A model generated the notes under the pieces. It saw only the letters and a program-made list of their open reading frames with translations. It was not told the DNA's origin and ran no database searches. Below are positions 861-1,370 of a stretch of DNA of 4,313 bases, piece after piece. A program made the position numbers and the translations under genes. The first letter of the stretch is position 1. Every line of letters starts with the position of its first letter. This DNA is from a virus (lineage: Duplodnaviria > Heunggongvirae > Uroviricota > Caudoviricetes): IMG/VR virus record IMGVR_UViG_2734482533_000006; one strand, 5' to 3'.

Positions 861-911
861 AAACAACAAAAAACCCGCCGAAACGCTGAGAGATCACAGC
901 GATGGGCGGGT
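861..911 (-). terminator. Rho-independent terminator ending the hok transcript.
   Basis: Minus-strand RNA: CCCGCC (plus 874-879) pairs with GGCGGG (plus 905-910), enclosing an inner CGCUG/CAGCG stem, followed by UUUUUUGUUGUUUAUUU (plus 861-873). Confidence 0.6.
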
Positions 912-987
912 TAAGTGCGGGTGCGTTGAGGATGCCTGACACATCAGAGGTGGGCGGGGATGGGATCAGCTCCCCGCCCGGTCACTC

Positions 988-1143
988 TTACTTCCTGGAT
1001 TCGTAGTCTACGAAGACAGCGACCTCCGTCTGGCCGGTTCGGATTCGTACCTCACAGAGGTCTTTCCTCGTTACCAGTGCCGTCACTATGACGGTTAAAC
1101 AGATGACGATCAGGGCGATTAACATCGCCTTTTGCTGCTTCAT
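988..1143 (-). CDS. hokD: Hok/Gef-family type I toxin (HokD/RelF-like small membrane peptide), 51 aa: MKQQKAMLIALIVICLTVIVTALVTRKDLCEVRIRTGQTEVAVFVDYESRK.
   Basis: Translation matches the Hok family hallmark: N-terminal transmembrane helix, conserved LTRK..LCE.R and the overall length. The first ~44 residues match E. coli HokD as I remember it; the C-terminus differs. AAGGAG SD 9 nt upstream of the ATG at 1143. The track's 70-aa ORF (to 1200) is an in-frame upstream extension. Symbol is by similarity; there is no relBE context here. Confidence 0.8.
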   Translation of the reverse strand: MKQQKAMLIALIVICLTVIVTALVTRKDLCEVRIRTGQTEVAVFVDYESRK

Positions 1144-1319
1144 AGCCTGCTTCTCCTTGCCTTTCGGCATGTAAGAGGCTAACCTACATGTGCAAAGCAT
1201 GAAATTGGCCTCAGATTAATGTTAAGCGTCTTGCCGGACGCGTAATGTTAACTGGGGCTTTTCTCTATCTGCCTTTTGGTGTTCATGCCTGAAGCAGATA
1301 GCCTCAAGCACCCGCAGTC

Positions 1320-1349
1320 ATTCTACTTACCTCGCCAATATGAAATCAA
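1320..1349 (-). promoter_or_regulatory. Candidate hok promoter: -35 TTGATT (plus 1344-1349), 18-nt spacer, -10 TAGAAT (plus 1320-1325); predicted TSS near 1313.
   Basis: Hexamers read from the minus strand. The predicted 5' end (plus 1302-1317) is complementary to the 3' region of the transcript (plus 915-931), as in hok mRNAs. Confidence 0.4.
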
Positions 1350-1370
1350 TCAGAAAGGTGCCCCATAAAA

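What the first reader, a model, noticed from the sequence alone, without database searches (positions are those of the whole stretch)
861..1350. Apparently intact hok-type type I toxin locus with promoter, 5'/3' fold-back complementarity and terminator
Beyond the Hok ORF, the locus has the architecture expected of a functional hok mRNA. A promoter (TTGATT-18-TAGAAT) predicts a 5' end near 1313. That 5' segment (plus 1302-1317, RNA CUGCGGGUGCUUGAGG) is complementary to a segment near the 3' end (plus 915-931, RNA CCUCAACGCACCCGCAC) with a single bulge, as in the tac/fbi pairing that keeps full-length hok mRNA inert. A strong intrinsic terminator follows at 861-911. By contrast, I recall K-12 hokD as lacking these elements. 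hok loci in prophages can act in post-segregational killing or phage exclusion.
Basis: partly seen in the sequence, partly recalled or inferred. Interest (0 to 1): 0.55.

Follow-up and report, generated by a model that had tools for sequence, protein, structure and literature searches.

The report
Intact prophage hok/mok/sok toxin–antitoxin locus
This is an ordinary, complete copy of the well-known hok/sok toxin–antisense-RNA cassette in an E. coli lambdoid prophage, with all the RNA switches described for the plasmid R1 prototype; it is real but not new.

Summary
Window 861-1350 (minus strand) carries a complete hok/mok/sok type I toxin-antitoxin cassette.

- The 51-aa ORF (988-1143) is a Hok/Gef protein (Pfam, 81 bits).
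- Rfam's hok/sok leader model matches 1313-1138 (117 bits; threshold 59) and starts exactly at the predicted +1.
- In the folded 453-nt transcript the first 12 nt (1313-1302) pair with 919-931, with one bulged C. Pair probabilities are at least 0.97 and the z-score is -8.4.
- The pairing recurs at the same place in 31 relatives from six or more genera, with compensatory changes.
- The two other known partners of the 5' element, a 5' metastable hairpin and the anti-SD box, are also present.
- A -10 hexamer is conserved at the same distance in all relatives. The -35 (TTGATT, 18-nt spacer) is not conserved.
- The terminator is real but carries a rare 23-nt insertion in its loop.
- The antisense Sok gene (1192-1262, plus strand) matches the validated sokW.

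The closest characterised relative is hokW-sokW of the Sakai Sp5 prophage (about 90% DNA identity; Hok 50/51). RefSeq annotates the gene as hokD. K-12 hokD lacks the 5' leader but keeps fbi and the terminator. This is already known, so interest is low.

The parts
1344..1349 (-). hok promoter -35 candidate, TTGATT (18-nt spacer)
   Evidence: Not conserved in relatives; a 10-nt deletion relative to L004/L005 brings it to this spacing. Plausible only.
1320..1325 (-). hok promoter -10, TAGAAT
   Evidence: A -10-like hexamer lies at the same distance from the GGG 5' end in all 31 relatives.
861..1313 (-). Full-length hok mRNA (about 445-453 nt; +1 at 1313, 3' end in the U tract 873-861)
   Evidence: The Rfam model starts at 1313. 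MFE -191.5 kcal/mol, z = -8.4. The structure projected on 32 loci is 84% paired, against about 41% when partners are slid.
1302..1313 (-). tac (translational activator element), GGGUGCUUGAGG
   Evidence: Pairs with fbi in the full-length fold. Pairs with the metastable partner in nascent or truncated folds. Pairs with ucb in the isolated leader and in the Rfam consensus.
1285..1295 (-). 5' metastable-hairpin partner of tac (GCUUCAGGCAU)
   Evidence: 96.6% paired across 32 loci; 4 of 11 pairs change on both sides; slid controls 30-52%.
1254..1260 (-). ucb / anti-SD box, AAGCCCC
   Evidence: Pairs with the mok SD in the full-length fold and with tac in the leader-only fold and the Rfam consensus. 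99.6% paired but invariant, so no covariation evidence.
1192..1262 (+). Sok antisense RNA gene (about 71 nt; single-stranded 5' tail, long hairpin, U tract)
   Evidence: Positional homologue of the annotated sokW misc_RNA of phage VT2-Sakai. Folds to -30.2 kcal/mol, z = -4.7. Covers the mok SD and AUG.
1157..1185 (+). Sok promoter: -35 TTGCCT (1157-1162), 17-nt spacer, -10 TAACCT (1180-1185)
   Evidence: Same hexamers as in the hokW-sokW locus (alignment), whose sokW promoter mutant loses antitoxin activity (PMC8621323). Too weak a consensus match for the scanner.
1209..1212 (-). mok Shine-Dalgarno, GAGG
   Evidence: Invariant in 32 loci. Sequestered by ucb in the full-length fold.
988..1200 (-). 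mok reading frame (70 aa; in frame with hok and sharing its stop)
   Evidence: Same arrangement as the annotated mokW.
1175..1180 (-). dcb (downstream complementary box), AGCCUC
   Evidence: Pairs with the mok SD region in the Rfam consensus. Overlaps the Sok -10 region on the other strand, as described for R1 (PMC9841398).
1153..1158 (-). hok Shine-Dalgarno, AAGGAG
   Evidence: Lies 9 nt upstream of the hok AUG; AAGG is invariant in the alignment.
988..1143 (-). hok toxin ORF (51 aa)
   Evidence: Pfam PF01848, 81 bits. 50/51 identical to HokW. RefSeq WP_014532198.1, 'HokD'.
952..979 (-). GC-rich hairpin after the stop codon; predicted 3' protective stem-loop of the truncated mRNA
   Evidence: Conserved in all relatives. 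Role inferred from R1 (PMC9841398).
919..931 (-). fbi (fold-back inhibitory element), CCUCAA-C-GCACCC
   Evidence: Lies 42-56 nt after the stop codon in relatives. Compensatory changes at pairs 4, 11 and 12.
861..912 (-). Intrinsic terminator: stem AACCCGCC/GGCGGGUU with a nested CGCUG/CAGCG hairpin, then the U tract 873-861
   Evidence: It is the hokD-type terminator with a 23-nt loop insertion (905-883). This variant occurs in only 2 of 5,426 complete E. coli genomes.

Best explanation
The region is a complete hok/mok/sok type I toxin-antitoxin cassette of the hokD/hokW lineage. It lies in the early-right region of a lambdoid (Rac/Qin-like) E. coli prophage, directly downstream of a QueH gene.

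By analogy with plasmid R1, the mechanism is as follows.
1. A weak constitutive promoter (-10 at 1325-1320) starts a roughly 450-nt mRNA at 1313.
2. While the RNA is being made, the 5' tac element is held in a local metastable hairpin (with 1295-1285).
3. In the finished RNA, tac pairs with fbi (931-919) next to the terminator. The anti-SD box ucb (1260-1254) sequesters the mok ribosome-binding site. The RNA can then neither be translated nor bound by Sok.
4. Slow 3' exonucleolytic trimming back to the GC hairpin (979-952) removes fbi.
5. tac then pairs with ucb, which exposes the mok start region and the Sok target.
6. While the unstable 71-nt Sok RNA (1192-1262, plus strand) is being made, it pairs there and the duplex is cleaved. 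If Sok synthesis stops, mok and hok are translated and the 51-aa Hok peptide damages the inner membrane.

Shown here: all sequence elements, the three alternative pairings of tac, and covariation for two of them.
Inferred: transcript ends, processing, toxicity, and the biological role (prophage retention, phage exclusion, or help with lysis on induction).
For: - Pfam HOK_GEF, 81 bits, for the ORF.
- Rfam RF01794: 117 bits against a gathering score of 59, E = 3.7e-27, spanning exactly +1 to the hok AUG.
- Full-length fold: -191.5 kcal/mol, z = -8.4, with a 12-bp tac/fbi helix and P >= 0.97.
- RNAalifold on 32 loci (Escherichia, Kluyvera, Photorhabdus, Pantoea, Erwinia, Citrobacter) recovers tac/fbi independently. 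Pair 4 reads UA:20 / CG:10 / UG:2.
- A register-fitted count shows compensatory changes at pairs 4, 11 and 12.
- The whole structure is 84% paired, against about 41% in slid controls.
- The metastable hairpin is 96.6% paired, with 4 pairs changing on both sides.
- tac/ucb is 99.6% paired.
- Enforcing tac/ucb costs 12.8 kcal/mol in the full-length RNA but only 2-3.5 kcal/mol once fbi is removed.
- The -10 hexamer is conserved in all relatives.
- The Sok gene and its promoter are co-linear with the annotated and experimentally tested sokW.
- The Hok peptide is 50/51 identical to HokW, which is toxic and is neutralised by sokW (PMC8621323).
- The element definitions come from PMC9841398.
Against: - No transcript, processing or toxicity data exist for this allele.
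- The thermodynamic MFE of the truncated RNA keeps the closed conformation plus the metastable hairpin. It does not switch to tac/ucb, so the model alone does not predict the switch.
- The tac/ucb pairs are invariant and give no covariation evidence.
- The -35 is weak and not conserved, and the promoter scan is not above chance.
- The terminator carries an unusual 23-nt loop insertion whose effect on termination or 3' trimming is unknown.
Confidence: 0.88

Rival explanations
1. The cassette is architecturally complete but physiologically silent. It is transcribed and folded like hok mRNA, yet it never delivers enough Hok to kill, as reported for other chromosomal hok loci. On this view it persists as a passenger of the prophage.
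For: [quoted passage not shown]
- The hok promoter here is weak: 9 of 12 consensus positions, an 18-nt spacer, and a -35 that is not conserved.
- The truncated-RNA MFE stays closed.
Against: - Every regulatory element is kept, with compensatory changes across genera. This argues for continuing selection on regulation of a dangerous product.
- The 50/51-identical HokW is toxic, is controlled by sokW, and is produced on prophage induction (PMC8621323).
- 42 of 45 diverse Hok homologues tested were toxic.
Confidence: 0.2
2. Its main role is that reported for hokW-sokW. On SOS or RecA-dependent prophage induction, Sok disappears, Hok is made before holin and endolysin, and lysis and phage release are enhanced.
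For: - hokW-sokW is about 90% identical. It shows loss of sokW RNA, RecA-dependent HokW production and two-fold more phage release (PMC8621323).
- Here the cassette is co-oriented with the early operon, and no terminator lies between the QueH stop (1371) and the hok -35 (1349). Induction-driven read-through could therefore run against Sok transcription.
Against: - The genomic position differs from Sp5, where hokW lies in a different gene neighbourhood near one end of the prophage record.
- Whether this prophage is inducible at all is unknown; an IS1 lies in its late region.
- The link between read-through and Sok loss is an inference only.
Confidence: 0.3
3. Its main role is prophage retention (post-segregational killing of cells that lose the prophage) or exclusion of superinfecting phages by abortive infection when host transcription is shut off.
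For: - These are established activities of plasmid hok/sok, based on stable mRNA plus unstable Sok (general knowledge; roles summarised).
- hok genes are about four-fold enriched in prophages.
Against: - No enrichment of hok next to defence systems was found.
- Nothing here tests either role.
Confidence: 0.3
4. The 5'/3' complementarity is a chance match and the region is just a Hok ORF with unrelated flanks.
For: A 12-bp match with a bulge could occur by chance within a few hundred bases.
Against: - The pairing lies at the same position (42-56 nt after the stop) in 31 relatives.
- It has compensatory changes.
- P >= 0.97 in the ensemble.
- The Rfam covariance-model hit covers the leader.
Confidence: 0.01

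Closest known systems
hokW-mokW-sokW of Sakai prophage 5 / phage VT2-Sakai and 933W (Takada et al. 2021, PMC8621323; GenBank AP000422)
   Same: - About 90% DNA identity over the mRNA.
- Hok is 50/51 identical.
- The tac and fbi sequences are identical.
- mok is in frame in both.
- The Sok promoter hexamers are the same, and the Sok gene is 71 nt at the same position.
   Different: - The genomic context differs: here it follows QueH in the early-right region, whereas in Sp5 it lies in a different gene neighbourhood near one end of the prophage record.
- The sequence upstream of the -10 is unrelated.
- The 3' hairpin has 5 extra nt.
- The terminator is a different sequence: hokW does not share the ACCCGC..GCGGGU hairpin.
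hokD (relF) of the Qin prophage: the complete form in E. coli B and many wild strains, and the truncated form in K-12
   Same: - RefSeq names this gene hokD.
- E. coli B and strain N10 have the same QueH-hok arrangement, leader, fbi and terminator core at about 90% identity.
- More than half of complete E. coli genomes (2,892 of 5,426) hold a copy covering at least 80% of the query.
   Different: - K-12 hokD has relBE in place of everything upstream of the equivalent of window 1157. It therefore has no promoter, tac, ucb, mok start or Sok, though it keeps fbi and the terminator.
- The C-terminus here is VDYESRK rather than TAYEPEE.
- This allele has a 10-nt promoter-spacer deletion and a 23-nt terminator-loop insertion.
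hok/mok/sok of plasmid R1 (parB), the mechanistic prototype
   Same: - It has the same set of elements: tac, fbi, ucb, dcb, the metastable 5' hairpin, the mok SD GAGG, the 3' protective hairpin, and Sok antisense to the mok start (PMC9841398).
- All of these can be mapped here.
- The R1 paper numbers G4, C5 and T6 within tac. From my own recollection, not checked here, the R1 5' end reads GGCGCU; here it is GGGUGC.
   Different: - Protein identity is only about 44%, the figure reported for HokW against R1 Hok.
- At the DNA level only short stretches match R1-type plasmid loci.
- mok is in frame with hok here.
- The locus is chromosomal and prophage-borne rather than plasmid-borne.

Membership tests
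[quoted passage not shown] | Small (about 50 aa) hydrophobic Hok/Gef-family toxin ORF | tested here: met
   PF01848: E = 4.3e-23, 81.1 bits (cut-off 22), full-length domain match.
[quoted passage not shown] | hok mRNA leader with the family's conserved sequence and structure | tested here: met
   RF01794: 117 bits (gathering score 59), E = 3.7e-27, model positions 1-157 of 157, window 1313-1138 on the hok strand.
[quoted passage not shown] | mok reading frame that starts upstream of hok, overlaps it, and has its own SD | tested here: met
   A 70-aa ORF at 988-1200, in frame with hok; GAGG lies 8 nt upstream of its AUG and is invariant in 32 loci.
[quoted passage not shown] | Long-range tac/fbi pairing of the mRNA 5' end with a 3' element just upstream of the terminator | tested here: met
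   12 bp plus one bulge in the MFE. P >= 0.97. Recovered by RNAalifold with 10 both-sided changes at pair 4. Compensatory changes at pairs 4, 11 and 12.
[quoted passage not shown] | Alternative partners of tac: a metastable 5' hairpin (nascent RNA) and ucb (truncated RNA); ucb sequesters the mok SD in the full-length RNA | tested here: met
   The complementarities are all present.
- Metastable hairpin: 96.6% paired, 4 covarying pairs.
- tac/ucb: present in the leader-only fold and the Rfam consensus, 99.6% paired but invariant.
- ucb/SD: present in the full-length MFE.
[quoted passage not shown] | Removal of fbi switches the RNA to the open, translatable and Sok-accessible conformation | tested here: inconclusive
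   Removing fbi lowers the cost of tac/ucb from 12.8 to 2-3.5 kcal/mol, but the MFE of the truncated RNA stays closed. Structure probing is needed.
[quoted passage not shown] | cis-encoded antisense Sok RNA with its own promoter and terminator, complementary to the mok translation-initiation region | tested here: met
   The sequence evidence is met: -35 TTGCCT, 17-nt spacer, -10 TAACCT, then a hairpin and U tract (1192-1262, -30.2 kcal/mol, z = -4.7). It is co-linear with the annotated sokW. Expression was not measured.
[quoted passage not shown] | Slow 3' exonucleolytic processing of a stable mRNA, an unstable Sok, and RNase III cleavage of the duplex | not testable with these tools
   Needs northern blots or rifampicin chase. 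A 3' protective hairpin (979-952) is present, as in R1.
[quoted passage not shown] | Hok is toxic (inner-membrane damage) and Sok neutralises it | not testable with these tools
   Only by proxy: HokW, 50/51 identical, is toxic and is neutralised by sokW (PMC8621323).

The most novel reading that the evidence does not exclude
In this prophage the cassette sits co-oriented in the early (pR-type) operon directly after QueH, with no terminator in between. Prophage induction could therefore send read-through transcription head-on into the Sok promoter. It could also make 5'-extended hok RNAs whose tac/fbi helix is 3 bp longer (UGC 1316-1314 with GCA 918-916). That would couple Hok release to induction by transcriptional interference, and it would give a concrete mechanism for the unexplained RecA-dependent loss of sokW RNA reported for Sp5.
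Probability: 0.12. Interest if true: 0.35.

Novelty: already known. Interest (0 to 1): 0.12.

Why it matters
It matters little beyond annotation. It shows that this prophage carries a complete, probably active hok/mok/sok cassette, not the truncated K-12 hokD form that the RefSeq name might suggest. It also provides a clean comparative data set in which all three mutually exclusive partners of the hok 5' element can be seen. Position 4 of tac, which is bulged in tac/ucb, covaries with both fbi and the metastable partner. For strain biology, the cassette may contribute to prophage retention, phage exclusion or lysis timing, as for hokW-sokW.

Tried and rejected
- The simple terminator scanner found nothing in 700-1500. 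This was a limit of its rule (loop of 3-8 nt), not absence, because direct folding shows the hairpin.
- The promoter scan alone is not significant. I relied on conservation of the -10 instead.
- Folding the 3'-truncated RNA did not produce the open tac/ucb conformation.
- My first constrained fold used pairs shifted by one nucleotide and gave misleadingly high costs. It was corrected.
- MAFFT put the distal half of fbi out of register between clades with and without the bulge. This lowers the apparent pairing of pairs 7-12. I recounted with the register fitted per sequence, which leans towards the structure.
- The distant DNA search of plasmids returned only short matches (40-90 nt) to R1-type hok loci. 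They were too short to add to the alignment.
- An ungapped comparison of the whole window with locus L001 was uninformative because of indels or divergence outside the hok region. L012 and L013 differ from the window at 3 of 1,553 positions.
- I considered that the Rfam 'sok' hit might mean the antitoxin is on the minus strand. I rejected this because the match runs from the hok +1 to the hok AUG on the coding strand.

Full report
**Context.** All genes in the window are on the minus strand and belong to the early-right region of a lambdoid prophage.
- The gene order is a DnaC/YdaV-like ORF (with a masked N run), DUF977, a zinc-ribbon ORF, QueH (1371-2057), the hok region, a 95-aa ORF and DUF1367.
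- The hok region (840-1375) is 100% identical to the chromosome of E. coli FDAARGOS_943. There RefSeq annotates the same order of genes and calls the small ORF 'type I toxin-antitoxin system toxin HokD'.
- Related copies are very common. 4,713 of 5,426 complete E. coli genomes have a match, and 2,892 have one covering at least 80% of the query. Most are about 90% identical.

**The observation.**
- The 51-aa ORF at 988-1143 is a full-length Hok/Gef domain (Pfam PF01848, 81 bits).
- Rfam's RF01794 covariance model matches 1313-1138 on the hok strand at 117 bits (gathering score 59, E = 3.7e-27).
- The family is named 'sok', but the match is to the hok-sense leader. Its consensus structure is the open conformation (tac/ucb and SD/dcb).
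- The promoter hexamers TTGATT-18-TAGAAT are at 1349..1320.
- The folded 453-nt transcript has an MFE of -191.5 kcal/mol, with z = -8.4 and no shuffle as stable.
- In that fold nt 1-12 (1313-1302) pair with 919-931 as 12 bp with C925 bulged. Ensemble pair probabilities are 0.97-1.00.
- The 3' end folds into a stem AACCCGCC/GGCGGGUU enclosing a small CGCUG/CAGCG hairpin, followed by UUUUUUGUUGUUU (-25 kcal/mol, z = -4.1).
Bases 1314-1317 lie upstream of the likely +1. The promoter match by itself is not above chance (2 sites against 0.9 +/- 0.9 in shuffles).

**Comparative test.**
- I collected relatives from E. coli genomes, phages and one genome per species. I aligned 32 distinct loci from Escherichia species, Kluyvera, Citrobacter, Photorhabdus, Pantoea, Erwinia and Kalamiella.
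- In every locus with an intact leader, the best duplex partner of the first 12-16 nt lies 42-56 nt after the hok stop codon.
- RNAalifold, given no hint, pairs columns 1-6 with the fbi core. Pair 4 reads UA in 20 sequences, CG in 10 and UG in 2.
- With the register fitted per sequence (the bulge is absent in Photorhabdus, Pantoea and one of the two Erwinia tracheiphila loci), pairs 11 and 12 also show compensatory changes: GAAG/CUUC in Citrobacter and GAGA/UCUC in Photorhabdus.
- The window's full-length structure projected on the alignment is 84.2% paired, against 38-44% when partners are slid. The covariation score is 0.162 against 0.055-0.073.
- A -10-like hexamer (TAGAAT, TATAAT, TACAAT, TATATT, TAGTAT and similar) sits 6-7 nt upstream of the conserved GGG in all 31 relatives. 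Sequence further upstream is unrelated between lineages. This supports both the -10 and the +1.
- The -35 is not conserved. In the QueH-adjacent relatives L004 and L005, TTGATT is 28 nt from the -10 and TTGGCG/TTGGAG occupies the 17-nt position. A 10-nt deletion in the window brings TTGATT to 18 nt.

**The rest of the R1 mechanism.** Element definitions are taken from Le Rhun et al. 2022 (PMC9841398). Every element can be placed.
- The anti-SD box ucb is AAGCCCC (1260-1254).
- The mok SD is GAGG (1212-1209) and the mok AUG is at 1200.
- dcb is AGCCUC (1180-1175). The hok SD is AAGGAG (1158-1153).
- A GC-rich hairpin lies after the stop codon (979-952). In R1 the equivalent hairpin protects the 3' end of the truncated mRNA.
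- In the full-length fold, ucb sequesters the mok SD.
- The isolated 5' 84 nt fold with tac paired to ucb, as in the Rfam consensus.
- The 3'-truncated RNA folds with tac in a local hairpin with 1295-1285. This corresponds to the metastable hairpin described for nascent R1 hok mRNA. Across the 32 loci it is 96.6% paired, and 4 of 11 pairs change on both sides, including pairs 4/28 and 12/20.
- tac/ucb is 99.6% paired but invariant, which neither supports nor contradicts it.
- tac position 4 is bulged in tac/ucb and is the position that covaries with both other partners.
- Energetically, enforcing tac/ucb costs 12.8 kcal/mol in the full-length RNA but only 2-3.5 kcal/mol after fbi is removed. 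Loss of fbi therefore shifts the balance strongly, but nearest-neighbour folding alone does not predict the switch.

**Sok.**
- On the plus strand, TTGCCT (1157-1162), a 17-nt spacer and TAACCT (1180-1185) precede a 71-nt RNA (1192-1262). The RNA has a single-stranded 5' tail, a long hairpin and a U tract (-30.2 kcal/mol, z = -4.7).
- It is the positional homologue of the annotated sokW RNA of phage VT2-Sakai. It is complementary to the mok SD and AUG.
- For hokW-sokW, Takada et al. 2021 showed HokW toxicity, neutralisation by sokW, and loss of neutralisation when the sokW -10 is mutated. They also showed partial dependence on RNase III and Hfq, and RecA-dependent HokW production with loss of sokW RNA on prophage induction (PMC8621323).
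- The Hok peptide here differs from HokW at one residue (E50R).

**K-12 hokD.** In K-12-like genomes, homology to the window begins only at the equivalent of 1157 and relE lies immediately upstream. The fbi sequence and the terminator are still present. E. coli B and many wild strains carry the complete QueH-hokD arrangement.

**What is particular to this allele.**
- The terminator is the usual hokD hairpin (ACCCGC-TTCG-GCGGGT) with a 23-nt insertion in the loop (905-883) that forms its own small stem. Only 2 of 5,426 complete E. coli genomes carry it, whereas the fbi-containing 30 nt upstream are 100% identical in more than 3,600 genomes.
- The 3' hairpin has 5 extra nt.
- The promoter spacer has the 10-nt deletion noted above.
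- None of these removes a defining element.

**Verdict.** The feature is a complete member of a very well studied family. It is annotated in RefSeq, it is about 90% identical to an experimentally characterised prophage locus, and it follows the R1 architecture element by element. hok enrichment in prophages has also been reported (bioRxiv 10.1101/2025.08.07.668861).

What remains unknown is whether it is active in vivo and which role it plays: prophage retention, phage exclusion, or help with lysis on induction. The only mildly new idea the data leave open is induction-coupled activation by read-through from the early operon, because no terminator separates QueH from the hok promoter.

Novelty: already known. 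Interest: low.

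Noticed in passing
window 883-905 (within terminator 861-912): A 23-nt insertion (CCATCGCTGTGATCTCTCAGCGT on the minus strand) lies in the loop of the otherwise standard hokD terminator hairpin and forms its own 5-bp stem. It is found in only 2 of 5,426 complete E. coli genomes. Its origin and its effect on termination or 3' trimming are unknown.
   Followed up: partly
window 1326-1343: There is a 10-nt deletion in the hok promoter spacer relative to the QueH-adjacent relatives L004 and L005. 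It replaces their TTGGCG/TTGGAG (17-nt spacing) with TTGATT (18-nt spacing) as the -35 candidate.
   Followed up: partly
window 1000-1005 (Tyr47 codon UAC at 1003-1005, within the invariant UACGAA): The Tyr47 codon lies in a UACGAA motif that is invariant in all 32 aligned loci. A-to-I editing by TadA that recodes Tyr to Cys has been reported for hokB and, at the equivalent position, for hokC, hokD and hokE (bioRxiv 10.1101/2025.08.07.668861). This site may therefore be edited too.
   Followed up: no
window 988-1200; locus L011 530-743: mok is in frame with hok here and in hokW, giving a 70-aa N-terminally extended Hok. In the Rac-442 record mok is annotated in another frame with a different stop, because of a 1-nt indel just upstream of the hok SD (A1 column 159).
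   Followed up: partly
window 820-847 (-): A second promoter-like site with the same hexamers (TTGATT-16-TAGAAT) lies directly after the hok terminator. It is upstream of a 95-aa ORF (451-738) with no Pfam match. Part of this stretch (the TAGAAT end and the sequence downstream) is shared with the sequence upstream of rem in K-12 and E. coli B.
   Followed up: no
window 1350-1373: No terminator lies between the QueH stop codon (1371-1373) and the hok -35 (1344-1349). Early-operon transcription could read through into hok and run against Sok.
   Followed up: no
window 3124-3164: A run of 41 N (masked sequence) lies inside the DnaC/YdaV-like ORF (3105-3527, minus strand).
   Followed up: no
window 1371-2057 (-): A prophage-borne epoxyqueuosine reductase QueH (Pfam PF02677, 220 bits) lies immediately upstream of hok. 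The QueH-hok pairing recurs in E. coli B, strain N10 and other strains.
   Followed up: partly
window 1138-1313 (-): Rfam RF01794 is named 'sok antitoxin', but it matches the hok-sense strand from +1 to the hok AUG. Its consensus structure is the open (truncated-mRNA) conformation with tac/ucb and SD/dcb stems. Strand calls based on this family name could mislead.
   Followed up: yes
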